DNA from: Dehalococcoidia bacterium
GTDB lineage: Bacteria; Chloroflexota; Dehalococcoidia; Lucifugimonadales; UBA2985
DNA length: 64,000 bases
Assembly: GCA_965218945.1 (NCBI GenBank)
Contig: OZ244718.1
Span: 2,845,324-2,909,323 of the forward strand
Direction of reading: 5' to 3'
Position numbers and translations under genes: made by a program. Positions 28,582 through 49,617 of this stretch are shown here, piece by piece. The number at the start of each line of letters is the position of its first letter. Within the stretch, counting starts at the first letter, position 1. Below the pieces are notes generated by a model. The model saw only the letters and a program-made list of their open reading frames with translations, had not been told where the DNA came from and searched no databases.

Positions 28582-29534
28582 CTAGTCAGGCATCGTGATT
28601 ATCGATGCGGTAATTCGAACCGTATAGTGGAATACCTCGTTCAGGAACTCTGCCCAGGATTCGCCGTCATTTGCGAGGTTATCAAGTATGAATACCTTGT
28701 CTACGCCGAGCCTGTCCAGGCGATCCCGCATTTCGGAAGTGACTATTCCGGCAATGAGTATGTTCACACAATTCGGAGGCGTTGCCTCAAAGCTCTTCTG
28801 TATTGCTCCCAGCCTTTCGAGTGCGCCCGCCGGGTCTTTGCCCCCTTCACCTCAATAGTTGCAACAACCCTCGGTTCCCCGTTTACGACCTGACTGAACT
28901 CAACGTCCGGTTCCGAGCCGTAGCGCATGGAATAACCGTCCGGCAACTCAAATTGTGTCTGCTCGGCATTATGCTGGACTATAAGTTGTCGGCTGTCCAG
29001 CCAATCCCTGATCCTGGTCTTGATAAGCTGCTCTGCGTCCTGGCCGATGATGTTTCGGACTGTGCCGTCCAATCCTATGCCCATGTTGGCGATTACGTTC
29101 CTGTATCCGTTCTCAAGCGTCCAGCCGGTGGAACCCTCGATTATGGAAGAGATTACAGCGTTGTACAGCTGCGCAACGCGAAGCACGTGGGCCTCTCTCA
29201 CAGCAGTCGTTCTAGTCCCGTCCTCCCAGGAGTCCACGGCCCCCGCTATCTCGGTAACGCGCTTGCGAGGCAGCAATGCGATGCCCCGGTAGTATGCAGA
29301 TGCGCGAGGGTGTCGGGTCAGCAATAAAGGGTGTGCAAAAACCAGCTTGGGATCAATACCGGAAGATGTTACGTGATCCCATGCTTCCTGACTGATCATT
29401 AGCTCGTCCAGAGGCGTGAACGTCAGTTCGTCGGGGAATTCGGCAATCGCTTGCCTTAGCGCCAGGTCGGTCCTCTGCTGGATACGTTGCGCAATTACCT
29501 CCGAGCGTCTCCTGGCGTCATCCAGCTTGGCCAT
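28582..29534 (-). pseudogene. XcyI-family type II restriction endonuclease, frameshifted in a G run
   Basis: SEPDV...IEVKG; one extra G at 28841-28845 restores GGKDPAGALERLGAIQKSF and joins ORF 28582-28767. Confidence 0.8.
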
Positions 29535-31026
29535 ATCCCCGCACCCACTTGTACACGCACTTTCTTAGCTCCCGACGCCCAAATCGCCCCATCTGCTGAC
29601 TGGAGTTGCCCTTACCACGGGGCAACGCCCAGATATGCTCGCACACAAACCCGGACCGTTCAGCATAGTCGGATAGAATCAGGTCTACGGGCACCTCTTC
29701 GCCGTGATACTGCACGTTGTCGTTCACCATAATCACGGTTCCACCCGGCCTGACGATACGGCCCAACTCCGCTATGATTACCGCCATCTCAAGAAAGTAT
29801 CCCTCTATCAGACGGACGACGTGGGGATTGCTTAGCTCACTCATATGCTCTCTGAGAATGGTCAGAACCTCGTGAACAGCCGCCTGCTCCTCGTACATTC
29901 CAAATGCCGCGTCGATCAAGGGAGACTCTCCGTATTCCTTTCGCAGCAGCTCTCTTTTGGGCTTGTTCTCAACCGTTGCAGACAACATGCTCTGGCGCAG
30001 AGCACTAAAGGCGTCCTGGTCGTATCCAAGCCACGCAAGTTCAAGGGCGTAGGTCCTTGTGTAATCGTACCGGTTTGCGTACGGCGGAGAGGTGATGACC
30101 ATATCGAACGAGCTATCGGGCAACAGACGAAGATGCTCCAAGCTGGAGCCTGCGATGAACTCCGGACGCCCTCCCCCGTACCGCTGCTTGAGCAGATCCA
30201 TATCCTCCGCCATCTCGCCAAGACGGGCGTCCAAAGCGAACGGGAACGGCAGAATCGGCTCCTTGTCTACGCGCCCTCTGAGCTGTCGCCCCGACCGGTG
30301 GTCCCATCGAAGGTATTGCCCGTCCTTGCGCGTATAGCTCACGGACTCCAGTACGCTCATGCAGGCGAAGTCCAGCATGGTCTGGATACTGGGGGCATCC
30401 ACCGCGCTGATGAACTCCCGAGCCTTGGCAAGCTCCGTTTCCGTCTCTGCAGGGAAAGCGGACTCCGTGATTCGCACGTGGCGAAATGTGTGCTCCTGGC
30501 CAGGCTCGTTGCCGGACTGCACGTGCTTGAGCAGTTCCGCGGCAGCTTCTCTGAAAGCTTCTGGCCGCAGGCCGTTGGCCGCATGAGCAATCGCGTTGCC
30601 GGTCAGTACACCGACGGGGATGATTTCGATTCCCGTGGCCTGCAGGCCCCTGCCGGCCGCGATGAGTGGAGTAGTCCCAATGCCGGAGAAGGGATCAAGG
30701 ACAGACCGCGGTTGAAAGTCCGCTATCAGCCGCTCCACCAGTTCCCTTGAGAATCCCTCCTTGTATTTCATCCACCGGAAGCCCGGGGCGCGACGGTTGC
30801 CCTGGTACGATACCGCTCTACGCGTCAGCGTCGGGTTGATGGACAAGCGTTCTTCAAACCGTTTGTGTAAGGCGCGGCGTTGGTCAACACTCCCACCGTT
30901 GGGAGACTCCACAGCGGCCATACACAGGCTTGTTGTCGAGTCGGCGTGTGCAGTCTGACGCAGAAATCCCGGGAGCAGGGGCTGCTCTTCAGTGGTTGCT
31001 GCTTTCAATTCATCCGGGTTGGTCAT
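29518..31026 (-). CDS. Site-specific DNA methyltransferase (N4-cytosine type)
   Basis: LDPFSGIGTT (motif I) and ITSPPY (motif IV); overlaps the REase start. Confidence 0.9.
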   Translation of the reverse strand: MTNPDELKAATTEEQPLLPGFLRQTAHADSTTSLCMAAVESPNGGSVDQRRALHKRFEERLSINPTLTRRAVSYQGNRRAPGFRWMKYKEGFSRELVERLIADFQPRSVLDPFSGIGTTPLIAAGRGLQATGIEIIPVGVLTGNAIAHAANGLRPEAFREAAAELLKHVQSGNEPGQEHTFRHVRITESAFPAETETELAKAREFISAVDAPSIQTMLDFACMSVLESVSYTRKDGQYLRWDHRSGRQLRGRVDKEPILPFPFALDARLGEMAEDMDLLKQRYGGGRPEFIAGSSLEHLRLLPDSSFDMVITSPPYANRYDYTRTYALELAWLGYDQDAFSALRQSMLSATVENKPKRELLRKEYGESPLIDAAFGMYEEQAAVHEVLTILREHMSELSNPHVVRLIEGYFLEMAVIIAELGRIVRPGGTVIMVNDNVQYHGEEVPVDLILSDYAERSGFVCEHIWALPRGKGNSSQQMGRFGRRELRKCVYKWVRGYGQAG

Positions 31027-35378: not shown

Positions 35379-35445
35379 CGCCTGGCCACGCCCTGGCGGG
35401 CGGGGTAGTACGTTTTACACGACCTCCTTCCCTGCCACTCCCTTG

Positions 35446-35474
35446 TTGACAATATAGAACGCATATTCTATTCT
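35446..35474 (+). promoter_or_regulatory. Sigma70 promoter TTGACA-N17-TATTCT with LexA-like box AGAAC-GCAT-ATTCT in the spacer
   Basis: Seen directly; one mismatch from the GAAC-N4-GTTC SOS box. Confidence 0.75.
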
Positions 35475-35525
35475 TCTCCCCTAGCTACCGTCCGGTCAGG
35501 AGAACGCCGATGGTGACAGGAGGAG

Positions 35526-35846
35526 TTGTTGATACAGTCATTGCTGAGCCTGGCGGCCGTTCCGGGCGCGCTTATTGTCGTCTCCGGGGGCTTCAACGCC
35601 ATCTTCTTTGCCAACTACTCCGCAACGCAGGCGCGCAGGAGAGTGGGCGCTCTGGTGCTGGCCCTGGTCAACCTGAGCTTCCTGCTCCAGGGGCTGTACT
35701 GGCTGGCGCTGCCTCTCCGGTCGGGATACCAACAGACCCCGGGGAACGGCAACGCCCTGATCGTCGAGTTGATAACCCTTGCTTCATCGCTGGCAATCAC
35801 CGCGCTGATACTCAGGCAGAGGTCCGGCGGTAGACGCAACGGCTGA
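35526..35846 (+). CDS. 3-TM membrane protein heading the packaging operon (holin-like topology)
   Basis: AGGAGG RBS, three hydrophobic segments, basic C-terminus. Confidence 0.65.
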   Translation: MLIQSLLSLAAVPGALIVVSGGFNAIFFANYSATQARRRVGALVLALVNLSFLLQGLYWLALPLRSGYQQTPGNGNALIVELITLASSLAITALILRQRSGGRRNG

Positions 35847-35916
35847 CGGGGAGGACATCAGATTTGGCACTGGCAACTTCCGCCGGACCTAGAGTGATGG
35901 ATGAGAGTGAGGAGCC

Positions 35917-36075
35917 ATGAGAACCTTAGAGCTGGCAATCGAGAGGCAGGAGTGGAAGGTGGTGGCCGTATGCCTCCTGCGGGGGCTAGTGCAGGCATCA
36001 TCCGCATTGCAGCCGGAGACCCTGCACCAACTGCTGGAGGCCCTGGAAGGAGAGAGCAGTGCCCCGGAGAAGTAG
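35917..36075 (+). CDS. 52-aa hypothetical protein (not in the ORF track)
   Basis: GAGGAG RBS; MRTLELAIERQEWKVVAVCLLRGLVQASSALQPETLHQLLEALEGESSAPEK*; overlaps the next start. Confidence 0.7.
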   Translation: MRTLELAIERQEWKVVAVCLLRGLVQASSALQPETLHQLLEALEGESSAPEK

Positions 36076-36391
36076 CAAGCCGCCGGAGAGACCACAGGAG
36101 TTCTACGAGGAAGCCCTGTCCAAGGCGGAACGTGTGCGCCTCTCCCGCGCCAAGCAGATACAGGGGCTGGACGAGGAGATAGCTCTGCTCCGACTGCGCC
36201 TGAGTCGTCTGACGGAGGAGCAGCCGGAGAACCTGGAGCTGCTGATAAAGGGGATAGGGATGCTGGTGCGGGCGGTGTCGGCCAAGTACAAGCTGTCCCA
36301 CAAGGCGGAGGAGGACCTGTACCAGAGCCTGCTCGGTGTGCTCCAGGGCATTGGGAGCGTCCTGCTGCCGGAGGGGTCCGATGGAGAGTGA
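36059..36391 (+). CDS. Putative terminase small subunit
   Basis: Small helical protein (FYEEAL...GLDEEIALLRLRL) upstream of TerL; assignment is positional inference. Confidence 0.55.
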   Translation: MPRRSSKPPERPQEFYEEALSKAERVRLSRAKQIQGLDEEIALLRLRLSRLTEEQPENLELLIKGIGMLVRAVSAKYKLSHKAEEDLYQSLLGVLQGIGSVLLPEGSDGE

Positions 36392-36614
36392 TGAGATGAA
36401 GGACGCCCTCCGGAAGCTGCGCAGGCCGCGTGCCCCTGAGGTGGACCTGTCGCCGGCGTCCACATTCGACGCCCTGCTGGACCAGCGACTCGGACACCTG
36501 GAGCGTCACGTCGAGGAGCTGAAGACCCGGATAAACGGGCTGGTCTTTCTGGTGATAGGGGCGGTTGTAGCGCAGATAGTTTTGAGCTTTTGGGGATACG
36601 AGGTGAACCTATGA
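36381..36614 (+). CDS. Coiled-coil protein with a C-terminal TM helix
   Basis: LDQRLGHLERHVEELKTRINGLVFLVIGAVVAQIVL; GGAGG RBS; ATGA-coupled to TerL. Confidence 0.65.
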   Translation: MESDEMKDALRKLRRPRAPEVDLSPASTFDALLDQRLGHLERHVEELKTRINGLVFLVIGAVVAQIVLSFWGYEVNL

Positions 36615-37996
36615 ACAAGCTGCTTGGCCTGAGACCTTATCAGACGGAGATAGGCAGGACGGTCCTGGATAGTGTCCTGCACGGCAGGGGTCGCACCTTC
36701 ACGGTGGAGATAGCCCGCCAGGGCGGGAAGAATGAGCTGTCGGCGCAGCTGGAGATGCTGCTCCTGGTGCTCTTCTCCGTCAAGGGAGGGAACCTGGTCA
36801 AGGCCGCGCCCACCTTCGACCCGCAGGTTCGTATCAGCATCTCGCGGCTTAAGGAGCGTCTGAGGGACGCCGGGCTGGCCGGTCTGTGGCAGACCGAGGC
36901 CGGAAGCGCCATCCGACTGGGCAGGACTCGCCAGATGTTCCTCAGCGCCGAGCCGTCCAGCAACGTGGTGGGGGCCACGGCGCACATCCTCCTGGAGATG
37001 GACGAGGCCCAGGACGTTGACCGGGAGAAGTTCTACAAGGAGTTCAGGCCAATGGGCGCGTCCACCAACGTCACCACCGTCCTGTACGGCACTCCCTGGA
37101 TGGGAGACTCGCTCCTGGAGGAGATGAAACAGGGCAACCTGGAGTCGGAGCGGTCGGACGGCGTGAAGCGCCACTTCCGGCTGGACTGGCAGGAGGTGGC
37201 AAAGCACAACCCGCAGTACGAAGCCTACGTTGAGGGCGAAAGGCAGCGCCTGGGTGATAGCCATCCGTTGTTTCGCACCCAGTACCTCCTGGAGCCACTC
37301 AACGGGAGCGGCGGCCTGTTCTCACATCAGCAGCTTGCTCAGTTGCAGGGGAGGCACAGCCGCCGCTCCCGACCGGAGCAGGGGCAGTTGTACGTGGCCG
37401 GCATCGACGTCGCCGGGGAGGCTTCGGAGGCCGAAGGGCGGGGACGCGGAGCCGTCGATTCCGGCAGGGACTCCACGGTGGTCACCATCGGCGAGCTTGA
37501 CTTCTCGCGGTGCGACGACCTTTCGCCGGAGCCGGTGGTCAGGGTCGTGGAGCACTATCGGTGGACTGGCGAGAGCCACGCATCCCTCTTCCCAAGGCTG
37601 CGCGACCTGCTGCGCGACGTCTGGCGATGCCGGCGCGTGGTCGTGGACGCAACCGGGCTTGGACAGGGCGTCGCCAGTTTTCTTGAGAAGGCCATGAGCA
37701 AGGGGGTCGCGCACCCCTTTGTCTTCACGTCCCAGAGCAAGTCCCGCCTGGCCTTCGACCTGCTGGCCGCGGTGAACTCCGGGCGGCTGAAGATGTACGC
37801 CCCGGACGACTCGCCGGAGTCACGGGAGTTTCACTTCCAGATGGAGCGGGCGCGAGGCCACTTCAGGGCAAACCAGACCATGAATTTCTACGTGGATCCC
37901 GCGCAGGGCCACGACGACTACCTGTCGAGCCTGGCGCTGCTGGTGAAGGCGGCAGAGTATCGGCCGCGCCTTGCCCGCGGTCGTATGGATACGTGA
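36611..37996 (+). CDS. Phage terminase large subunit
   Basis: LRPYQ adenine motif, ARQGGKN Walker A, LEMDEAQ Walker B, YGTP coupling motif, GIDVA / VDATGLG / GHDD RNase H-like nuclease acidic residues. Confidence 0.88.
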   Translation: MNKLLGLRPYQTEIGRTVLDSVLHGRGRTFTVEIARQGGKNELSAQLEMLLLVLFSVKGGNLVKAAPTFDPQVRISISRLKERLRDAGLAGLWQTEAGSAIRLGRTRQMFLSAEPSSNVVGATAHILLEMDEAQDVDREKFYKEFRPMGASTNVTTVLYGTPWMGDSLLEEMKQGNLESERSDGVKRHFRLDWQEVAKHNPQYEAYVEGERQRLGDSHPLFRTQYLLEPLNGSGGLFSHQQLAQLQGRHSRRSRPEQGQLYVAGIDVAGEASEAEGRGRGAVDSGRDSTVVTIGELDFSRCDDLSPEPVVRVVEHYRWTGESHASLFPRLRDLLRDVWRCRRVVVDATGLGQGVASFLEKAMSKGVAHPFVFTSQSKSRLAFDLLAAVNSGRLKMYAPDDSPESREFHFQMERARGHFRANQTMNFYVDPAQGHDDYLSSLALLVKAAEYRPRLARGRMDT

Positions 37997-38031
37997 GTTG
38001 AGGAGCAGAACTACGGAGAGGTGTGAACTAA

Positions 38032-38319
38032 GTGAGTCCAAGAAAGAGTGTGTCCATAATAGATTCTCTGCCGGAGCAGTTCCCGTATCGGGACAGCGGC
38101 TGTGAGGTCTCCCCCTCCTGCCTTGAGTGCCCACTTCCGTTGTGCAAGTACGACGACCCCGCGGCCTACCACCGGCAGATACGGGAGGGCCGCGACCGCG
38201 AGGTCGTCGACGCGAAGTGCGACCAGGGCAAGACCGTCTCGCAGATAGCAAGCCATTTCGGGTTGAGCCAGCGGACCATCCATCGAATCCTGGAGCGGTC
38301 CAGGGCAAATTTCCTTTAG
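38032..38319 (+). CDS. HTH regulator with an N-terminal four-Cys motif
   Basis: CEVSPSCLECPLPLC followed by GKTVSQIASHFGLSQRTIHRIL. Confidence 0.8.
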   Translation: MSPRKSVSIIDSLPEQFPYRDSGCEVSPSCLECPLPLCKYDDPAAYHRQIREGRDREVVDAKCDQGKTVSQIASHFGLSQRTIHRILERSRANFL

Positions 38320-38328
38320 GAGCACGCT

Positions 38329-39648
38329 ATGGACAACGAGTCTCTGCATCAGAACATTGCCCGTATGGACGGCGACAGGCTGAGGGCCTATCGGGAGAAC
38401 CTGGCCTTCTACAACGGGGCGCAGTGGGTGGGCGCGCCGCATCGCCGGGAGAGGCGCCTCACCTTCAACTACGCCCGCGCCTTTGTGGACAAGATAACCT
38501 CCTACCTGATGACCGGGATGTCCATCGTGATAGATCCCTGGGACTCATCGCCGGAGGCGCGGGAGCGCGCCGACAGAGCCGAAGACGCGCTTCGCCAGGT
38601 GTACGACGCCAACCACTTGGAGCAGCTTGACTTCGATACAGAGCTGGACGCCGCCATTCTTGGCGACGGGTGCTACAAGGTGACCTGGGACACGGAGGAG
38701 CAACGGGTGAGGGTCACCTCGCCCGACGTGCAGGGCCTCTACGCCTGGTGGGTGGCCGACGACGTTGGGCGCGTCTGGCGCGTGGCCAGCCGGTACACCC
38801 TGTCCTCGGAGGAGGCGCAGATGCTCTACGGCGTCGGGAGCGCCCCCACCGGCGGCAGTGAACAGCGGGTGACGGTTGTGGAGATGTGGACAGCCGAAGA
38901 CCTACGCCTGTGGGTGGGCGACGCCCTGGTCCAGGAGAAACCCAATCCCTACGGATTCATACCATTCATCCTCTTCCCGAATCTGAGGGAACCCAAGAAG
39001 TTCTGGGGTCTGTCGGACGTTCCTCCCCTTGTGGAGCCGTCGAGGGAGCTGAACAGGGCTATCTCCCAGCTTTCCATGATCCTGGAGCTGTCCGGCAACC
39101 CCATAGCCGTACTGGAGGGCGTTGAGCGCGCGGAGGACATCGCCGTGCAGCCCGGCGCGGTGTGGGAGCTGCCGGAGCAGGCCAGGGCCTACCTCCTGGA
39201 CCTGCTCCAGGGCGGAGGCATCAAGCTCCACGTGGACTTCATCGACCTGATATACCGGTCGCTGCACGACATCTCGGAGGCGCCCAGGATCAGCTTTGGC
39301 GACAATCCCCGCAGCCTGTCGGGCGTGGCCCTTGAGATGGAGCTAAGCCCTCTGCTCCAGAGGGTGCGACGCAAACGCCTCATCCGGACGGCGGTGTACA
39401 AGGCCCGCAACGAGACGGCGCTGCGACTGCTGACCCAGCGGACGGGCGTCGCGTACCTGCCGGTGAAGCAGCGCATCCTCTGGGGACCGCTGCTGCCCCA
39501 GGACAGGAGCCGGCTGGTGAGGGAGCAGCAGACGCTGGTGGAGACGGGCATCCAGAGCCGTCGGCGGGCGATGGAGAACCTGGGCATAGAGGACCCGGAC
39601 GCCGAATGGCAGCGCATGAGGGAGGAGGGGTCAGAACGGCCTGCGTAG
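38329..39648 (+). CDS. Phage portal protein (SPP1 gp6-like)
   Basis: FYNG.Q, NYARAFVD, AILGDG, NPYGFIPF..FPN and SGVAL motifs; 439 aa; follows TerL. Confidence 0.85.
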   Translation: MDNESLHQNIARMDGDRLRAYRENLAFYNGAQWVGAPHRRERRLTFNYARAFVDKITSYLMTGMSIVIDPWDSSPEARERADRAEDALRQVYDANHLEQLDFDTELDAAILGDGCYKVTWDTEEQRVRVTSPDVQGLYAWWVADDVGRVWRVASRYTLSSEEAQMLYGVGSAPTGGSEQRVTVVEMWTAEDLRLWVGDALVQEKPNPYGFIPFILFPNLREPKKFWGLSDVPPLVEPSRELNRAISQLSMILELSGNPIAVLEGVERAEDIAVQPGAVWELPEQARAYLLDLLQGGGIKLHVDFIDLIYRSLHDISEAPRISFGDNPRSLSGVALEMELSPLLQRVRRKRLIRTAVYKARNETALRLLTQRTGVAYLPVKQRILWGPLLPQDRSRLVREQQTLVETGIQSRRRAMENLGIEDPDAEWQRMREEGSERPA

Positions 39649-39663
39649 CCATGAAGCCAAAAG

Positions 39664-39954
39664 CTATCGACGCCACAGGCGTAACCCTTGAAATAAGATG
39701 TCTTTGGCGTCCTGATGGTAATCCGAACCATCAGTAGTTATAATCCTGTGTGTAGTAGCTATATGCTTCCCATTTGGAAGGCGATGTTTTACAATTTGGC
39801 TGAGGGCGTCCGGCCAATTCCTAGAGGGAACTGTCTTATTGGGTACTACCTCACTTATCAGGCGACCGTCTCGGATTTTAGTCCATATGTTGAATTCTTC
39901 AAATAGGACATTCAGCACTTGGCGGTTTACTTCGGCGGTAGGGACACGAGGCAT
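39664..39954 (-). CDS. Hypothetical protein (low-GC insert)
   Basis: 96-aa ORF in an AT-richer segment. Confidence 0.6.
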   Translation of the reverse strand: MPRVPTAEVNRQVLNVLFEEFNIWTKIRDGRLISEVVPNKTVPSRNWPDALSQIVKHRLPNGKHIATTHRIITTDGSDYHQDAKDILFQGLRLWRR

Positions 39955-39981
39955 TGTGGATCTCAGATTGGAAGCACTACC

Positions 39982-40338
39982 ATGAGAGAGTTCTTAGAGA
40001 TACTAGCAAAATATGTGAGCCGCGAGCAGCCATTCTCGGTTGTGGAGGAATGGCTAGCCGGTGTTGACTGGGATGATCCAAACCTGACCCAAGAGAATAA
40101 AGAGATCTTCGGTTTGTTCGAACTCCTTACAACCGAAGTTTCCGAGGGGTTGCGAGACCAACAAGAACTGATCGGTGAAGCTATTACATTGCTCATGAGG
40201 CAAGGCCAGAACGTTTTCCTGAATTATATGACAGTTGAAGCAACAATTCAGGCCAGTTCAGTAGACACGCCTATCATTTTGGTAACGCCCGAGCAGGGCC
40301 AGAGAACCTGGAGTATATCACCTCAATTGGTAATCTAG
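39982..40338 (+). CDS. Hypothetical acidic helical protein (low-GC insert)
   Basis: MREFLEILAKYV...VEEWL..VDWD; convergent 65-bp overlap with the next gene. Confidence 0.55.
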   Translation: MREFLEILAKYVSREQPFSVVEEWLAGVDWDDPNLTQENKEIFGLFELLTTEVSEGLRDQQELIGEAITLLMRQGQNVFLNYMTVEATIQASSVDTPIILVTPEQGQRTWSISPQLVI

Positions 40339-40720
40339 TAAGCAACTCGTCGTCGAAATATACGTTTACCCAGTGTACTCCCGGCATCTCCATCCTCATA
40401 CTCATGTCCGCAACTACGTTTACACCTCTGTTGCCTCCCTCAAGATGTACAGAAAGTAAGATCGGTTCTTTGGTCTCTGCTGACGGTAGTTCTGGAACAA
40501 TTCTAACCGGGTAACTCCCTCTAGCCTCGCCCGATTTCAATGACAATACTAGTTTCCAATTGAGGTCGAAAGCAGGCATTTCCTCGGGTGCTTGTGGCCC
40601 TCCACGGCTATGGGTAGTTCTGTCCACCACGTTGATTAGGGATAACATTCCCCTCTTGTCTTCAATTACCTGCTCACAAAATGCCGCTATCTGAAGATAG
40701 GGTCCCTTCTCAAAAGCCAT
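40274..40720 (-). CDS. DUF6941-like protein
   Basis: AAFCEQVIEDKRGMLSLINVVD...PGVHWVNVYFDDELL pattern; GAGG RBS. Confidence 0.7.
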   Translation of the reverse strand: MAFEKGPYLQIAAFCEQVIEDKRGMLSLINVVDRTTHSRGGPQAPEEMPAFDLNWKLVLSLKSGEARGSYPVRIVPELPSAETKEPILLSVHLEGGNRGVNVVADMSMRMEMPGVHWVNVYFDDELLTRLPIEVIYSRFSGPARALPK

Positions 40721-40831
40721 TTCCTCTTCACCTTCTTCCTGCTTCCTGCGAGTTTCTCCGTATATTGTCCCCGAATTCATCTCCCATGACAAATGAACGC
40801 CGCCTAGCCCGTAGCCACCCCTTTCCTCTCG

Positions 40832-40875
40832 TTGACATTCCCCCCTTGCGCAGTCTATATTAGAACTGATATTCT
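40832..40875 (+). promoter_or_regulatory. Sigma70 promoter TTGACA-N18-TATATT followed by LexA-like box AGAAC-TGAT-ATTCT
   Basis: Same operator variant as at 35456-35469. Confidence 0.72.
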
Positions 40876-40906
40876 GCAACAAGTCAACTTCTTATCAGGA
40901 GAGATT

Positions 40907-41425
40907 ATGGCTGAAGATAATGCTCAGACTACAGAGATGGAGTCAGATACAGACGTCGGCGAGGCGGTTGGAATGGAAACAGAGGAGGCCTCACAGGAGC
41001 AAACGGAGGACGCTCTGTCGGAGCGCGACCGGCGTCTGTCGGGATTGGAGGAGGCGCTGGGACAGCGGGACGCCAGGATAGCGCACCTGGAGGCGGCTTT
41101 GGGCGAGGCGGAGGACGCCGCGAAAAGGCGTGATGAGGAGATTGAGGGCGTCACCGCCCGGCTGGCCCAGGCGGTGGAGCTGTACCGCGTCTCGCTGCTG
41201 GCGTCGGAACCGGACGTGCCGGAGGATATGGTGCAAGGCTCCACCGTCGAGGTTGTCCAGGAGTCCCTCGCGCGAGTGCGTCAGATGGTCGAGCAGGTAC
41301 GAGGCCGTATGGAGGCGCGGGCATCCCTGGAGCGCACGCCCCTGGGCGTTCCGGCACGCTCGGCCCCGGACCTCTCAGCGCTGACGCCCCAGGAGAAGAT
41401 ACTGGTAGGCCTGAGAGGCCGCTAG
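40907..41425 (+). CDS. Putative capsid scaffolding protein
   Basis: Acidic N-terminus, long coiled coil and a C-terminal PDLSALTPQEKI helix; follows the portal; assignment by composition and position. Confidence 0.6.
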   Translation: MAEDNAQTTEMESDTDVGEAVGMETEEASQEQTEDALSERDRRLSGLEEALGQRDARIAHLEAALGEAEDAAKRRDEEIEGVTARLAQAVELYRVSLLASEPDVPEDMVQGSTVEVVQESLARVRQMVEQVRGRMEARASLERTPLGVPARSAPDLSALTPQEKILVGLRGR

Positions 41426-43298: not shown

Positions 43299-44502
43299 GG
43301 AAGGTCTGAACAATGTGTTGCCAGGCTGATTTCTTGATTGCTGGGTGCAGAAGCAGACTTACCCTCCTGGTTATTGGCCTTGGTTTTTGAAGATGCGGTT
43401 AATTTCGGCCCTCTTTGCCCTCTCCTCTTCGGCCGCTTTGCGGCTTCAGTCCCGCTTTTGGGCCTACTACCCCCCAGGTCAACCAGCCAAGAGGCCCCGG
43501 GCCCGGTTCAGGTTGGACAGCCCCAGCAGCAGCGCCAGCCGTTCTGTGTTCTTGGCCAAGCCCCGGTAGCGTACTTTAGCGTAGCCGAATACCCCCTTCA
43601 CGTCCCAGAAGGGATGTTCCACCTTAGCTCGCACCGACGCCTTAGACTTCTCCGCTAAGGCTACCAGACTCCCCGAATCCAGCTTTCGTCGCTGTCCCGG
43701 CTTCATAGCCACCTGCCACTGTACCCCCAACTCCAGATTCTCGGACCGCTTCTCCACCCCTGTGTATCCGGCATCCCCCCATACCTGCTGCTCCCCACCA
43801 TGCAATAGACGATGGGCTTGGGTCACATCATGCACGTTGGCCGGCGTTGTTGAGAAGCTGTGTACCAAGCCTGTCCGGGAGTCTACACCAATGTGCAGCT
43901 TCATCCCGAAATGCCACGCATTCCCCTTCTTCACCTGGCGCATCTCCGGGTCACGCTGCCCCGCCCCGTTCTTCGTTGACGACGGCGCTGCTATGATGGT
44001 GGCGTCCACTATGCTCCCCTCCTGCAGCCGTACCCCCTGCTTCTCCAGGTGACCTTTAATCTCCTCAAACAACCCCTGACCCAGTTGATGCTTCTCCAAC
44101 AGGTGGCGAAAGTGTAGTATCGTGCTCTCGTCTGGCAGGTCTTCCGACAGCCTGAGACCCACGAACCGCCTCACCGACTCTGCCTCATACAGCAGATCTT
44201 CCATACCAGGGTCACTCAAATTGTAGCAGAGTTGGACTACGTGCACTCGCAGCATCACCGACAGGGAGTAAGGCCGACGACCCCGCTCCGCCTTAAAGTA
44301 GTGGGGCCGGATGCGCTCCTCCAACGTCTCCCAGGGTATCAGACATTCCATCCGCTCCAGAAAGACCTCTCGACGGGTCCTGCGCTTCTTGTGCCGGTAT
44401 TCCAAGTCGGCGAAGGTGGGCTGGTCAGTCATGGCGTCCTCCCTGGCTTTTGCTTGCTTTGCCTAAATTATGCCATAATCAGGGACATTATTCAGAGATT
44501 CC
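43299..44502 (-). mobile_element. IS5-family insertion sequence, 1204 bp, CTAA target-site duplication
   Basis: TIRs GGAAGGTCTGAACAATGT / GGAATCTCTGAATAATGT; CTAA at 43295-43298 and 44503-44506. Confidence 0.92.
43479..44432 (-). CDS. IS5 family transposase
   Basis: PDESTILHFRHLLE, VDATII, HFGMKLHIGVD, GDAGY and RAKVEHPF DDE motifs. Confidence 0.95.
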   Translation of the reverse strand: MTDQPTFADLEYRHKKRRTRREVFLERMECLIPWETLEERIRPHYFKAERGRRPYSLSVMLRVHVVQLCYNLSDPGMEDLLYEAESVRRFVGLRLSEDLPDESTILHFRHLLEKHQLGQGLFEEIKGHLEKQGVRLQEGSIVDATIIAAPSSTKNGAGQRDPEMRQVKKGNAWHFGMKLHIGVDSRTGLVHSFSTTPANVHDVTQAHRLLHGGEQQVWGDAGYTGVEKRSENLELGVQWQVAMKPGQRRKLDSGSLVALAEKSKASVRAKVEHPFWDVKGVFGYAKVRYRGLAKNTERLALLLGLSNLNRARGLLAG

Positions 44503-47006: not shown

Positions 47007-47886
47007 ATGAGCAGATTGCCGTCTCCAATATATCTGCAAGGGGAATTGACCGAGGTAGGAGGTAAGAGTTCTGAGAGCAAAAGACGTAGCCGACGTAAGC
47101 TGATAGCGTTCGGCTGGTACGGAGGCAAATATAACCACTTGGGCTGGCTGCTGCCCCTGCTCCCCGAAAGTCCACTACTGTGAGCCATTTGCCGGATCAG
47201 CAGCTGTTCTACTGAACAGACGCCCCTCACCGGTAGAGACGTACAATGACATTGATGGCGAGATAGCTAACTTCTTCAAGGTATTGAGAGACCGAACAGA
47301 GGATCTGGTAAAGCACATAGCGCTTACTCCATTTTCAAGAGAGGAGTTCTACTGGGCTGTATCAGAGGGCACAGAGCATCTTGACGATTTAGAGCGCGCC
47401 CAGAGATTCTTCATACGCGCCCGCCAGTCCAGAACGGGTTTGGCTCAGACCGCATCCCTGGGTCGTTGGGCCAACTGCAAGAACACGAGCAGGGCGGGAA
47501 TGTCCGGTGTAGTTTCACGTTGGCTTGGTAGTGTAGAGCACCTACCGGAGATAGCCATGCGATTGCTCAGAGTCCAGATTGAGAACAGACCGGCTGTAGA
47601 CGTAATCCGCTTATACGACAGCCCCAACACCCTCTTCTACTGCGATCCACCCTACCTCCACTCCAGCCGTGGTGACAGCAAGGCATACGGATTTGAGATG
47701 GAAGAAGAGTCTCACAAAGAGCTTTCCGAGGTGCTTCGCAACTGCAAGGGTAATGTAGCTATTTCCGGCTACAGGTGCGATCTTATGGACGATCTGTACA
47801 AGGACTGGCAATGCCATGAAGCTCTACCCAAGCTCTGTCACTCAGTGAAGGAGCAGAGGCAAGAGGCCCTTTGGACCAATTTCTAG
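47007..47886 (+). pseudogene. Dam-like (D12 class) DNA adenine methyltransferase, frameshifted near 47170
   Basis: AAGGAGG-ATG 47007; FGWYGGK in one frame, HYCEPFAGS...YND and YCDPPY in another. Confidence 0.85.
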
Positions 47887-47904
47887 AAGTATGAATGACG
47901 CAAT

Positions 47905-49007
47905 ATGCCTGTGAGTCTGGTCGAAGCGGCAGCCGCTACTCTGCAAGAAATCTGGGCGAGTGTTCTGTCCGCTGCAGAAGATGGGCCGCTCGTGGATGCC
48001 ATAGAGGAAGATGACGGCGAGCTACTCGAAAGCATCCGTCTCTCTGTGAATTCAAATACAAAGACCTACCGCTATGTGCTACCCACTCAGCTTCTTGCCA
48101 AGATAGCCGACCCCGCTCTGGACTGTCGCTCACTGCAGGCGGGCGCCGATAGGACCGGCTCCTTTGATGCGCGCACCATTGCCCACCAAATCATAGTTCC
48201 TTTTGACCAAGCAAACGATCGCGTGTTGGGAGGCTCGCCGGAGCCGTACGTTAACAATCCGGTTAGAGTTTCGGAGGTCTCGGAGCGGCATCGAAATCCA
48301 CAAAAAAACAAGCGGGGCTGGGACCACCTGTGTCGCGTGCTGGAAGTCGTTGAAAGCGCCCAAGATGAGGACTTCACAAAGACCGTACTGCGTCAGGTCA
48401 TCATTGAAATATACCGCCGACTGTCAGAGGTCAGAGTGGCATATCCAACGCCACGACGGATTAGTTTGTCTGGGTGTATGAGACTCATAGATGAGTATCG
48501 GCTGAGACTTCGGGTGGAGACCGGCTGTTGGCGCTTTCTTCCGCGCTTTTTGCCGTGATAGGTAGGAAATTTCACTTATTTTCAAGAGTAGAGAGAGCCT
48601 CAATCACGGCCTCAGATGCTTCTACGGGAATGCTTGCCGACTTGGAGTGTAGTACTGAGGACGGCACAATAGTGCTGGTCGTGGAGGTAAAGGACAGGAT
48701 TCTCACTGTGAGCCAGATGATGGGAAAAGTAGCCAACATGCGCGAGAAGCAAGTCTCAGAGATATTCTTTGTGGCTCAACAAGGTGTTGAAGACCAGGAG
48801 CAGGTGGACTCACTGATAGAGAGCGAGTTTGTAAGCGGCCAGAATATCTATGTAATGAGCCTTTCCAGGCTGGCAGAAGTCAGCTTGGCGCTATTGGGTG
48901 AAGAGGGCAGGCGGGAATTCCTGTTGGGGGTGGGATCCCAGCTGGATGACCACCGATCCGACATCAGACACAGACGACGCTGGTCAGAGCTCTTGGCATC
49001 CGTCTAA
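47905..49007 (+). pseudogene. SacI-family restriction endonuclease, frameshifted near 48499
   Basis: KTYRYVLPTQLLAK, FDARTIAH and EPYVNNP; one missing base restores ETSGGDRL joined to ASD...ADLE...VEVKD. Confidence 0.78.
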
Positions 49008-49056
49008 TGTGCCCCCAAAGGGAGTAGGTCTTCTCTGTCTCCGCTGGTTTCCGACG

Positions 49057-49362
49057 CTAAGCCACCGGCCTGGGCGGCGGCCAGATCCCTTCGAAGGTGC
49101 AGCGCACTCCCGAGCTCAGGGCGTCGGTGACCGTTGGCGCGAGTATCCTGGCCGTGGCGCCGTCCTCGCACACCACGTGAAGGCCGCTTCTCTCTATAGA
49201 TGTGACTGCAAATTCCCAAGGCTGCCCGGCTATCGGCATAAACTCTCCATGCCATCTTCTAAGGCCGGGGTCGTTCTGGTCCACCCAACCGACCATCCGG
49301 CAGCCCCCAATCAAGCCTCCATCCTTGTCCTTGATTGTCACCCTTTCATCGAATGCAAGCAT
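49057..49362 (-). CDS. Hypothetical protein
   Basis: 101-aa ORF with AGGGG RBS and beta-rich composition. Confidence 0.5.
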   Translation of the reverse strand: MLAFDERVTIKDKDGGLIGGCRMVGWVDQNDPGLRRWHGEFMPIAGQPWEFAVTSIERSGLHVVCEDGATARILAPTVTDALSSGVRCTFEGIWPPPRPVA

Positions 49363-49420
49363 CGCTGCCCCTGTTCTATTCTTGAAACGTGTTCCTGCCC
49401 CCGCAGGAATGACAGCGGAT

Positions 49421-49449
49421 GTAGGGGCGGTTCGCGAACCGCCCCTACA
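49421..49449. repeat. GTAG-type REP palindrome
   Basis: TGTAGGGGCGGTTCGCGAACCGCCCCTACA; related copies at 19417 and 46801. Confidence 0.8.
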
Positions 49450-49617
49450 TCCTCCTTCAGAATCGCGCCTACATTTTACTATAACCCGGCTCTCCAGTCT
49501 GCTTTCCCTTCAGCCACTTTGGGGACAACGCCGGCAGCCACCCGCCTTTGTCGATGGGCCGGCTGCGCCTTGTGCTATACTCTATAACCAAACGTTATTC
49601 ACAAGAGAGTTGTAAGC

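What the first reader, a model, noticed from the sequence alone, without database searches (positions are those of the whole stretch)
35446..41425. Candidate domesticated, SOS-controlled gene transfer agent (phage packaging operon without a phage)
Seen: a co-oriented, tightly coupled set of uninterrupted ORFs (3-TM protein, 52-aa protein, putative TerS, coiled-coil/TM protein, TerL with all ATPase and nuclease motifs, Cys-HTH regulator, portal, putative scaffold). Base composition looks host-like and the RBSs are strong. It lies between rel-rpsT and GYD/MFS genes, with no integrase, att repeat, replication, tail or endolysin gene in the window. Both transcription units carry a LexA-like operator. 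Known: GTAs are vertically inherited phage head/packaging genes under host regulators, often split across loci. Inference: this is a host-maintained particle system (GTA-like) of Dehalococcoidia rather than a decaying prophage. The nearby accessory R-M genes are frameshifted while these genes are not.
Basis: partly seen in the sequence, partly recalled or inferred. Interest (0 to 1): 0.87.

Follow-up and report, generated by a model that had tools for sequence, protein, structure and literature searches.

The report
Host-kept phage particle genes in Dehalococcoidia
A set of phage head, DNA-packaging and short-tail genes has been inherited with the chromosome across a whole class of bacteria, split over several sites under one shared stress-response switch, which looks like a new gene-transfer-agent-like system.

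Summary
Window 35433-41425 holds two transcription units: 3-TM protein, p52, p110, p92, TerL, Cys-HTH and portal; then a scaffold-like gene. Each follows a sigma-70-like promoter with a TAGAAC-N4-ATTCT palindrome.

The missing capsid exists. An HK97-type capsid gene, an SU10-type adaptor, a 662-aa tail-like protein and a 70-aa protein lie at G000:C1:183659-187517, behind a third copy of the same promoter architecture.

In relatives the genes stay beside relA-rpsT. They diverge in step with RelA. Within the genus dN/dS is 0.07-0.12 for TerL, portal and capsid, as for RelA, and dS is host-like.

In an even class sample, capsid was found in 153 of 251 genomes and TerL in 179 of 251, mostly single copy and family-coherent. 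Several lineages show decay.

Different lineages hold the units at one, two or three loci. No integrase or replication gene was seen at the loci examined. Integrase-bearing relatives are contiguous and lack the palindrome.

The palindrome matches the box in front of lexA in six genomes.

Best reading: a vertically inherited, LexA-box-controlled, phage-derived particle system, GTA-like or PBSX-like. Particle formation and DNA transfer are untested. My five paper searches found no description.

The parts
35433..35476 (+). Promoter P1 with operator: TGCCAC box, -35 TTGACA (35446), palindrome TAGAACGCATATTCTA (35455-35470), -10 TATTCT
   Evidence: It is conserved in 15 genomes of the family and order (A1). 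A terminator-like hairpin at 35390-35406 separates it from the upstream host gene.
35526..35846 (+). 106-aa protein with three hydrophobic stretches and a basic C-terminus; holin-like (inference)
   Evidence: One search gives the sequence. No family hit. It is conserved at 34-98% identity in the family and order. dN/dS is 0.07-0.33.
35917..36075 (+). p52, small protein of unknown role
   Evidence: It is conserved at 58-98% within the family and has no family hit. RNA-library contigs cover it.
36059..36391 (+). p110, candidate small terminase by position
   Evidence: Its homologue lies directly upstream of TerL in L088, L090 and G071. dN/dS is 0.05-0.12. The Atlas gives only a weak lead: T5 TerS at 0.80.
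36336..36614 (+). p92, coiled-coil plus C-terminal membrane helix; the start is probably 36381 or 36396
   Evidence: It is conserved at 45-96%, with dN/dS 0.14-0.68. The only hit is below threshold: NCBIfam NF048001, 19 bits against a cut-off of 50.
36590..37996 (+). Large terminase (ATPase plus RNaseH-like nuclease)
   Evidence: Catalytic motifs are invariant in 11 sequences. It is single copy. dN/dS is 0.07-0.11.
38032..38319 (+). 95-aa protein with four Cys and a C-terminal HTH; candidate activator or DNA-recognition factor
   Evidence: HTH_23 2.5e-6, Sigma70_r4 5.6e-5, phrog_836 4.6e-6. It heads the portal operon in L132-type contigs and in G071. dN/dS is 0.11-0.16.
38329..39648 (+). Portal protein, SPP1 type
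   Evidence: PF05133 3e-20 and phrog_64 1e-32. It is single copy. dN/dS is 0.07-0.12.
39650..40830 (.). Variable lower-GC insert: ORFs 39664-39954(-), 39919-40338(+), DUF6941 40274-40882(-). Not part of the conserved system.
   Evidence: GC is 0.54. DUF6941 scores 1e-6. These ORFs were not found in relatives. Contigs of DNA runs X5 and X7 join about 39632-39645 to about 40792-40830.
40832..40876 (+). Promoter P2 with operator: TTGACA, 18 nt, TATATT, then the palindrome TAGAACTGATATTCTG (40861-40876)
   Evidence: It is conserved in the family (A2). It travels with the gene to a third locus in genus g6.
40907..41425 (+). 172-aa acidic coiled-coil protein; scaffold by position
   Evidence: It lies between portal and capsid in the contiguous relatives (p197 was hit in 77 of 84 IMG/VR loci). 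It has no family hit. dN/dS is 0.28-0.45. An RNA-library contig begins about 14 nt upstream of the ATG.

Best explanation
The finding is one half of a chromosomally inherited, phage-derived particle system of Dehalococcoidia.

SHOWN
- Three transcription units make up the system. Unit 1 runs from the 3-TM gene to the portal. Unit 2 is the scaffold-like gene. Unit 3 is capsid, adaptor, p662 and p70 at G000:C1:183659-187517.
- Each unit sits behind a conserved promoter with an AGAAC-N4-GTTCT-type palindrome. This palindrome equals the box in front of lexA.
- The genes are single copy, syntenic with host genes, under purifying selection and diverging at host rates.
- They occupy one, two or three loci in different lineages.
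- No integrase or replication gene was seen at the loci examined.

INFERRED MECHANISM
- LexA represses all three promoters, and DNA damage lifts the repression.
- Scaffold, capsid protein and portal build a procapsid.
- TerL, with p110 and/or the Cys-HTH protein as DNA-recognition partner, fills the procapsid by headful packaging.
- Adaptor, p662 and p70 close the portal as a short tail.
- The 3-TM and p92 membrane proteins release the particles. The cell appears to lack peptidoglycan, so no endolysin would be needed.
- Because the genes are scattered, the particles cannot carry the system itself. They would carry other cellular DNA, as in a gene transfer agent or a PBSX-like element.
For: SECOND LOCUS
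- Capsid: PF05065 2e-13 and phrog_212 4e-74.
- Adaptor: SU10_adaptor 5e-9.
- p70 is conserved.

SYNTENY AND CO-DIVERGENCE
- RelA/TerL/capsid identity to G000: 99/97/98 (G001), 93/89/92 (G002), 79/75/88 (G026), 66/68/85 (G036), 57/62/73 (G058).

SELECTION
- Within-genus dN/dS: TerL 0.07-0.11, portal 0.07-0.12, capsid 0.08-0.10, RelA 0.07-0.10.
- dS against G002: relA 0.47, terL 0.60, portal 0.41, mcp 0.44.

DISTRIBUTION
- Close-relative sample: TerL in 21 of 61 and capsid in 25 of 61.
- Class sample: capsid in 153 of 251 and TerL in 179 of 251.
- By my hand comparison of the two lists: both 146, capsid only 7, TerL only 33, neither 65.
- Presence is family-coherent: f40 16/17, f51 10/10, f53 0/16.
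- Titles of 80 of 80 listed genome hits name Chloroflexota MAGs.

MODULARITY
- Contiguous 13.4 kb between housekeeping genes in G071.
- Two loci in G000.
- Three loci in genus g6, with the promoter kept.

PHAGE-LIKE RELATIVES
- L088 and L090 are contiguous, carry integrases and lack the palindrome.

SHARED PROMOTER AND LexA
- Alignments A1-A3.
- The composite pattern hits exactly these 3 sites in 3.1 Mb, against 0 in the control. The pattern was derived from these sites.
- Boxes before lexA in 6 genomes are (T)AGAAC-N4-GTTC.
- In G011 the lexA box GAGAACATGCGTTC differs at one base from its P1 operator GAGAACATGCGTGC.

OTHER
- TerL motifs are invariant.
- Concerted decay: in G056 TerL and capsid are both broken, and G018 lost TerL and has a stop in p662.
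- No Mur ligase domain was found in the genome, while 10 of 14 control genomes ring.
- RNA-library contigs of a close relative lie on parts of both units.
Against: NOT SHOWN
- No particle, packaged DNA or transfer has been shown.
- No receptor-binding protein, head protease or lysis enzyme was recognised.
- p662 has no family.

PATCHY PRESENCE AND DECAY
- The capsid gene was not found in 98 of 251 class genomes, and whole families lack it.
- Outside the class it was found in only 13 of 178 phylum genomes.
- Decay is frequent:
  - G056 and G046 (both genes broken or fragmentary).
  - G018 and G028 (locus 1 lost).
  - G098 (broken portal, no capsid).
  - G027 (capsid in two places).
  - G005 (capsid frameshift).
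  - G001 (TAG near the end of TerL; its RelA match also holds a TAG, so this may be an assembly error).

WEAK POINTS IN THE LexA LINK
- Each of G000's three operators has one mismatch in the GAAC/GTTC core. Some relatives have AGTAC.
- AGAAC-N4-GTTCT with up to 1 mismatch is not enriched genome-wide: 32 sites against 66 in the control.
- recA has no box.

OTHER
- Integrase-bearing relatives exist, so some class hits may be prophages.
- Genus g68 carries 2-6 TerL matches per genome.
- Class counts rest on single-protein searches.
- The RNA evidence comes from contigs of an RNA library that may hold DNA.
- No gene tree was made.
Confidence: 0.7

Rival explanations
1. The system is domesticated, but not for gene transfer. 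The SOS-induced particles act as killer particles (a PBSX-like phage-derived bacteriocin), as a suicide or DNA-release device, or as an anti-phage decoy. Packaged DNA would be incidental.
For: The same evidence of host maintenance and LexA-box control applies. SOS induction with lysis is the PBSX pattern (recalled). A large, fast-evolving LRR/Ig surface protein lies beside locus 2: 54% identity where the capsid gene is 92%.
Against: TerL and its nuclease motifs are kept invariant. p110 is under strong constraint, with dN/dS 0.05-0.12. This implies that DNA packaging itself is selected. No toxin or contractile tail gene was seen at the loci.
Confidence: 0.2
2. It is a functional temperate phage or phage satellite that integrates at conserved sites. 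The apparent vertical pattern would reflect site-specific integration and co-speciation.
For: Relatives L088 and L090 carry tyrosine integrases next to the same packaging and head module. Genus g68 has several TerL copies. IMG/VR lists 141 relatives of the capsid gene as viral.
Against: The units lie at two or three loci up to hundreds of kb or more apart, so they cannot be packaged together. No integrase or replication gene was found at the loci in G000 or G071. dS equals that of flanking host genes. The IMG/VR contigs are short (2.2 to 20 kb), and L132-type contigs have no TerL beside the portal.
Confidence: 0.05
3. It is a decaying prophage remnant with no function, conserved only because too little time has passed.
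For: Broken copies exist in several lineages (G056, G046, G018, G098). Phage functions that were not recognised include a fibre, a head protease and a lysin.
Against: dN/dS is about 0.1 at dS 0.4-0.65. Full-length capsid genes at 53-81% identity occur across a class whose RelA falls to 45-66% within one order. Catalytic residues and promoters are invariant or conserved.
Confidence: 0.03

Closest known systems
RcGTA of Rhodobacter capsulatus and alphaproteobacterial GTAs (features recalled, not from a call)
   Same: Phage head and packaging genes with no replication or integration module. Vertical inheritance with purifying selection and lineage losses. Genes spread over several loci and tied together by host regulation. 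The contiguous form here is about 13 kb (G071), comparable in size.
   Different: No sequence kinship was seen: the best isolated-phage capsid match is 41%. The only RcGTA-family hit is below threshold, 19 bits against 50. Only an adaptor plus p662 and p70 form the tail; no tube or tape-measure gene was seen at the loci. No head protease was recognised. Control is by a LexA-type box directly on each promoter, not by CtrA/GafA. The host phylum is Chloroflexota.
PBSX / skin-type defective prophages of Bacillus subtilis (recalled)
   Same: SOS-inducible and chromosomally fixed. The particle packages host DNA. Small membrane proteins (XhlA/XhlB-like) sit with the structural genes.
   Different: PBSX is one contiguous element with a contractile tail, its own Xre repressor and an endolysin. 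Here the units are dispersed, the palindrome resembles the LexA box itself, and no lysin was found.
Integrase-bearing contigs L088 and L090 (IMG/VR)
   Same: The order is p110-like, TerL, portal, scaffold-like, capsid, adaptor, then a large p662-like protein. TerL is 57% and portal 55-56% identical.
   Different: They are contiguous. They carry tyrosine integrases and many small ORFs, a podophage GP4 fibre protein (L088) and a longer 359-aa capsid protein. They have no TAGAAC-N4-GTTCTA palindrome.
Capsid-forming PICIs and other phage satellites (recalled)
   Same: A small set of head and packaging genes without tail-fibre or replication genes of a full phage.
   Different: Satellites are mobile, contiguous, integrase-bearing and patchy among strains. 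This system is dispersed, lacks an integrase at its loci, and co-diverges with the host.

Membership tests
Gene transfer agent (viriform) | Phage structural and packaging genes in the chromosome without integration, replication or lysogeny modules | tested here: met
   Pfam scans of the ORFs around both loci in G000 and around the contiguous cluster in G071 found only host genes, an IS, and a toxin-antitoxin pair. Only part of the window was scanned.
Gene transfer agent (viriform) | Vertical inheritance under purifying selection | tested here: met
   Synteny beside relA-rpsT across genera. Identity tracks RelA. dN/dS is 0.07-0.12 and dS is host-like. No tree reconciliation was done, because the script machine was lost.
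Gene transfer agent (viriform) | Control by host regulators | tested here: inconclusive
   Three promoters carry a palindrome equal to the box before lexA in six genomes. Binding was not tested. G000's own sites each have one core mismatch.
Gene transfer agent (viriform) | Particles package random host DNA, too little to carry the encoding genes | not testable with these tools
   There is only the indirect argument that the units lie at 2-3 distant loci.
Gene transfer agent (viriform) | Delivery of DNA to recipient cells | not testable with these tools
   No data.
Functional tailed prophage | One contiguous genome with integrase and att, replication and lysogeny genes | tested here: not met
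   Loci are split. No integrase lies at the loci. Att repeats were not searched.
LexA (SOS) regulon | Operator matching the organism's own LexA box in a repressing position | tested here: met
   G000's lexA promoter has CGAACATTAGTTCC. Five relatives have (T)AGAAC-N4-GTTC. The element's sites lie in the spacer or over the -10. recA lacks a box.
HK97-fold major capsid protein (PF05065) | Profile match above the curated cut-off | tested here: met
   50.6-51.1 bits against a cut-off of 24.2; phrog_212 4e-74.
Large terminase | ATPase Walker A and B plus RNaseH-like nuclease acidic residues | tested here: met
   The motifs are invariant in 11 sequences. phrog_38 scores 8e-8. Pfam Terminase_6C is just under its cut-off, 21.6 against 22.6.
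Small terminase (p110) | Recognised TerS family or fold | tested here: not met
   No hit in Pfam, PHROGs or NCBIfam. The Atlas score is 0.80 only. Position upstream of TerL is the sole argument.
PBSX-like phage-derived bacteriocin | Contractile tail and dedicated lysin | not tested
   None was seen at the loci.

The most novel reading that the evidence does not exclude
An ancient, class-wide gene transfer agent of Dehalococcoidia. It would be a short-tailed, capsid-forming particle whose three gene modules each carry their own LexA box and can therefore be scattered around the chromosome. DNA damage would switch on packaging of host DNA and holin-only release from wall-less cells. This would be an independent domestication in a phylum where no GTA is known, and a major route of gene exchange (for example of dehalogenase islands) in these slow-growing bacteria, most of them known only from metagenomes.
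Probability: 0.4. Interest if true: 0.9.

Novelty: new member of a known kind. Interest (0 to 1): 0.8.

Why it matters
Only a handful of GTAs are known, each an independent domestication, and none that I know of in Chloroflexota (recalled).

Here the computational hallmarks are unusually clean:
- host-rate divergence;
- dN/dS of about 0.1;
- presence in most sampled species of a class;
- dispersal of modules held together by a shared operator.

If the particles move DNA, this would explain gene flow in a class that matters for bioremediation and subsurface carbon cycling. It would also give a natural example of how a phage genome is broken into a host regulon.

It also has a practical side. 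IMG/VR files at least 141 such capsid loci as viral. Many of these look like chromosomal copies, which would inflate virus counts for this phylum.

Tried and rejected
CLOSED OR LOST TOOLS
- The script machine was lost. No gene trees, no tree-wide codon models and no scripted co-occurrence table were made. The 2x2 table was made by hand.
- Supplements of papers were not consulted.

SEARCHES THAT FOUND NOTHING USEFUL
- PF03864 capsid family: no hit.
- PDB sequence searches with the p662 profile and the capsid protein: no hit.
- Atlas leads stay leads only: p662 near Sipho_Gp37 at 0.92, and p110 near T5 TerS at 0.80.
- p92 matched 'GTA head formation protein' NF048001 at 19 bits against a cut-off of 50. 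I rejected this as evidence, because it probably reflects a membrane helix.
- The strict composite promoter pattern found no fourth site, so no further regulon members were located. Looser patterns were not tried.

LEADS REJECTED
- The AGAAC-N4-ATTCT sites at G000:C1:480040 and 481321 lie inside two paralogous ORFs and were dropped as promoters.
- The 903-aa LRR/Ig protein beside p70 was considered as a fibre. It is inverted in G000 relative to the other genus members, so I left it out of the system.
- The 227-aa PT-rich lipoprotein-like gene upstream of the capsid gene is not a protease or scaffold.
- Extra TerL copies in G075 are solitary genes among host genes.

NOT USED OR NOT EVIDENCE
- The RNA run X22 left TerL, the HTH gene and parts of the portal without cover. 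That is not evidence of silence.
- Complex prediction and a second structure job were not used.
- The bioRxiv paper 10.64898/2026.09.15.751708 (abstract and passages read) concerns another element, IME1.


Full report
1. WHAT IS IN THE WINDOW

The portal is a clear SPP1-type portal (PF05133 3e-20; phrog_64 1e-32). TerL matches phrog_38 (8e-8) and falls just under the Pfam Terminase_6C cut-off. Its Walker A, Walker B, YGT and three nuclease acidic motifs are invariant in an alignment of 11 relatives that spans family, order, class and phage-like contigs.

The 95-aa protein has four cysteines and a sigma-70-region-4-like HTH; its best PHROG is a late activator. The 3-TM protein, p52, p110, p92 and p197 have no family in Pfam, PHROGs or NCBIfam.

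The flanks are hisS, relA and rpsT on one side, and GYD, an MFS transporter and an IS transposase on the other. Further out lie host genes and R-M fragments.

Two corrections apply. First, a 1.2-kb lower-GC insert (39650-40830) with two opposite-strand ORFs separates portal and p197. It is absent from relatives, and contigs of two DNA runs skip it. Second, p197 starts at ATG 40907.

2. THE MISSING CAPSID

A search of the window's own 3.145-Mb single-contig genome with PF05065 gave one hit. At G000:C1:183659-187517 lie four genes:
- a 296-aa HK97-type capsid gene (phrog_212 4e-74);
- an SU10-type adaptor (5e-9);
- a 662-aa protein;
- a conserved 70-aa protein.

TerL, portal and capsid are each single copy. 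The two loci are 2.69 Mb apart on the contig, or about 442 kb if the contig is circular, which I did not establish.

3. ONE PROMOTER DESIGN, THREE TIMES

I aligned upstream regions from relatives:
- 15 genomes upstream of the 3-TM gene;
- 10 genomes upstream of p197;
- 15 genomes upstream of the capsid gene.

Each alignment shows the same conserved design: TG(C/A)CA(C/T), seven bases, TTG, and then a palindrome whose family consensus is TAGAAC-N4-GTTCTA.

A strict composite pattern hits exactly these three sites in the genome and none in the control. The pattern was built from these sites, so this only shows that no fourth site exists. The two window sites are the best sigma-70-like promoters in the region. 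The palindrome lies in the spacer at P1 and over the -10/+1 at P2.

4. THE LexA LINK

G000's lexA gene is preceded by CGAACATTAGTTCC. In five relatives the lexA promoter carries (T)AGAAC-N4-GTTC. In G011 the lexA box and the P1 operator differ at one base. In G071, a member of another family, both element promoters carry TAGAACATTTGTGCTA, and an L132-type contig has TAGAACAATTGTGCTA before its HTH gene.

Against this:
- Each of G000's sites has one core mismatch.
- Some relatives have AGTAC.
- The simple motif is not enriched genome-wide: 32 sites against 66 in the control.
- recA has no box.

That GAAC-N4-GTTC is the LexA box of Gram-positive bacteria and Dehalococcoides is recalled, not taken from a call.

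5. INHERITANCE AND SELECTION

In 20-kb loci from 19 relatives, the order 3-TM, p52, p110, p92, TerL, HTH, portal is kept beside relA-rpsT throughout the family. Identity to G000 falls in step for RelA, TerL and capsid:

| Genome | RelA | TerL | Capsid |
|---|---|---|---|
| G001 | 99 | 97 | 98 |
| G002 | 93 | 89 | 92 |
| G026 | 79 | 75 | 88 |
| G008 | 77 | 76 | 86 |
| G036 | 66 | 68 | 85 |
| G034 | 61 | 66 | 75 |
| G058 | 57 | 62 | 73 |

Pairwise NG86 estimates within the genus come from my own script, G000 against up to six genomes:

| Gene | dN/dS |
|---|---|
| TerL | 0.07-0.11 |
| portal | 0.07-0.12 |
| capsid | 0.08-0.10 |
| p110 | 0.05-0.12 |
| HTH | 0.11-0.16 |
| adaptor | 0.14-0.26 |
| p662 | 0.15-0.24 |
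| p70 | 0.15-0.31 |
| p197 | 0.28-0.45 |
| RelA (host) | 0.07-0.10 |
| amidase (host) | 0.05-0.10 |

dS values match those of host genes. No tree was built, because the script machine was lost.

6. DISTRIBUTION

- Close relatives: TerL in 21 of 61 and capsid in 25 of 61. The carriers are the larger genomes. The 1.0-1.5-Mb family members lack both.
- Even class sample (at least 90% complete): capsid in 153 of 251 and TerL in 179 of 251, mostly one match per genome and coherent by family. These tallies include the unpublished G264.
- Hand comparison of the two lists: both 146, capsid only 7, TerL only 33, neither 65.
- Outside the class: 13 of 178 phylum genomes have the capsid gene, at 43-55% identity and in a few families.
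- Titles of all 80 listed genome-contig hits, out of 258 relatives, name Chloroflexota MAGs.
- The best isolated-phage capsid is 41% identical.

7. DECAY

- G056 has both TerL and capsid broken, and G046 has fragments of both.
- G018 keeps remnants of locus 1 without TerL and has a stop in p662.
- G028 lost locus 1.
- G098 has TerL with a broken portal and no capsid match.
- G027's capsid gene lies in two places, and G005's has a frameshift.
- G001's TerL has a TAG 22 codons before the end. Its RelA match also holds a TAG, so this may be an assembly error.

The system is therefore dispensable, and its parts tend to decay together.

8. MODULARITY AND ANCESTRY

In IMG/VR contigs the order is p110-like, TerL, (HTH), portal, p197-like, capsid, adaptor, p662, p70. 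This places p197 where scaffolds lie.

L088 and L090 carry tyrosine integrases and a podophage fibre protein, and they lack the palindrome. They look like true phage relatives.

In G071 the whole set is a 13.4-kb block between radical-SAM and YqeY genes on one side and RNase H and CtpA genes on the other, without an integrase. G000 has two loci. In genus g6 the scaffold gene sits at a third locus, 63 kb from TerL in G023, and keeps its promoter.

A genome that must package itself cannot be scattered like this.

9. RELEASE AND EXPRESSION

No endolysin was seen at the loci. No Mur ligase domain was found in the genome, while the 10 bacterial controls ring. The cell therefore probably has no peptidoglycan, and the 3-TM and p92 membrane proteins could suffice for release. 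This is inference. These small genes are found in the order but not in G071.

Contigs of one metatranscriptome library, 90-97% alike, lie on p52 and p110, on parts of the portal, and on the whole scaffold gene starting about 14 nt before its ATG. The library may hold DNA, so this is a weak hint.

10. READING

- Shown: a dispersed, single-copy, host-rate, purifying-selected set of head, packaging and neck/tail genes with a shared LexA-box promoter.
- Inferred: SOS-triggered assembly of short-tailed particles that package cellular DNA, GTA-like or PBSX-like.
- Rivals: another use of the particles (0.2), a live phage or satellite (0.05), inert remnant (0.03).

11. LITERATURE

Five full-text searches returned no paper describing this system:
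- 'gene transfer agent' with Dehalococcoidia;
- 'gene transfer agent' with Chloroflexota;
- 'gene transfer agents' with Chloroflexi;
- Dehalococcoides with terminase, portal protein and capsid;
- Dehalococcoidia with major capsid protein and prophage.

For these I saw the listings only. The one close title, on IME1, is a different element; I read its abstract and passages. Subscription journals and supplements were not searchable.

Noticed in passing
window 39650-40830: A 1.2-kb lower-GC insert between the portal and the scaffold promoter carries three small ORFs, one of them DUF6941. Relatives lack it, and contigs of two DNA runs skip it. This points to a variable slot inside the element.
   Followed up: partly
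G075, G122, G139, G155, G199 and others (genus g68); L285 7488-9140: Genomes of one genus carry 2-6 TerL matches each but only one capsid match. One extra copy is a solitary 550-aa TerL-like gene among host genes and an IS481. This is unexplained.
   Followed up: partly
whole genome G000: No Mur ligase N-terminal domain was found, while 10 of 14 control genomes ring. The organism probably makes no peptidoglycan.
   Followed up: partly
window 47284-49587 and 28764-31026: There are fragments of restriction-modification genes: a D12 methylase lacking its N-terminus, SacI endonuclease pieces in overlapping ORFs, and an XcyI-like endonuclease with an N6_N4 methylase.
   Followed up: no
L042 3515-6226 (G000:C1:180514-183225): A 903-aa LRR plus Ig/cadherin-domain protein lies next to p70. 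It is only 54% identical in genus members whose capsid gene is 92% identical, and it is inverted in G000 relative to them. Ig/TIG-domain proteins also flank the element in G071, L132 and L156.
   Followed up: partly
L042 12207-13964: A tRNA-Asp, a SIMPL-family gene and a HigB/Gp49-like toxin-antitoxin pair lie upstream of the capsid locus.
   Followed up: no
G034:C1:421522-424496; G036:C5:580469-583336: In two other families of the order, lexA lies directly beside relA. In the window's family, the element's packaging locus lies beside relA-rpsT.
   Followed up: no
family f48: Capsid matches are strong (E about 1e-135 to 1e-145) but TerL matches are much weaker (1e-70 to 1e-87). This suggests a diverged or exchanged terminase in that family.
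   Followed up: no
window 43479-44432: An IS with a DDE_Tnp_1 transposase lies just beyond the MFS gene.
   Followed up: no
IMG/VR contigs L092-L171: At least 141 short contigs filed as viral carry this capsid gene at about 63-66% identity. The longer ones show the HTH, portal, scaffold, capsid, adaptor, p662 block with no TerL beside the portal and the LexA-type palindrome. They are probably chromosomal copies rather than viruses.
   Followed up: partly
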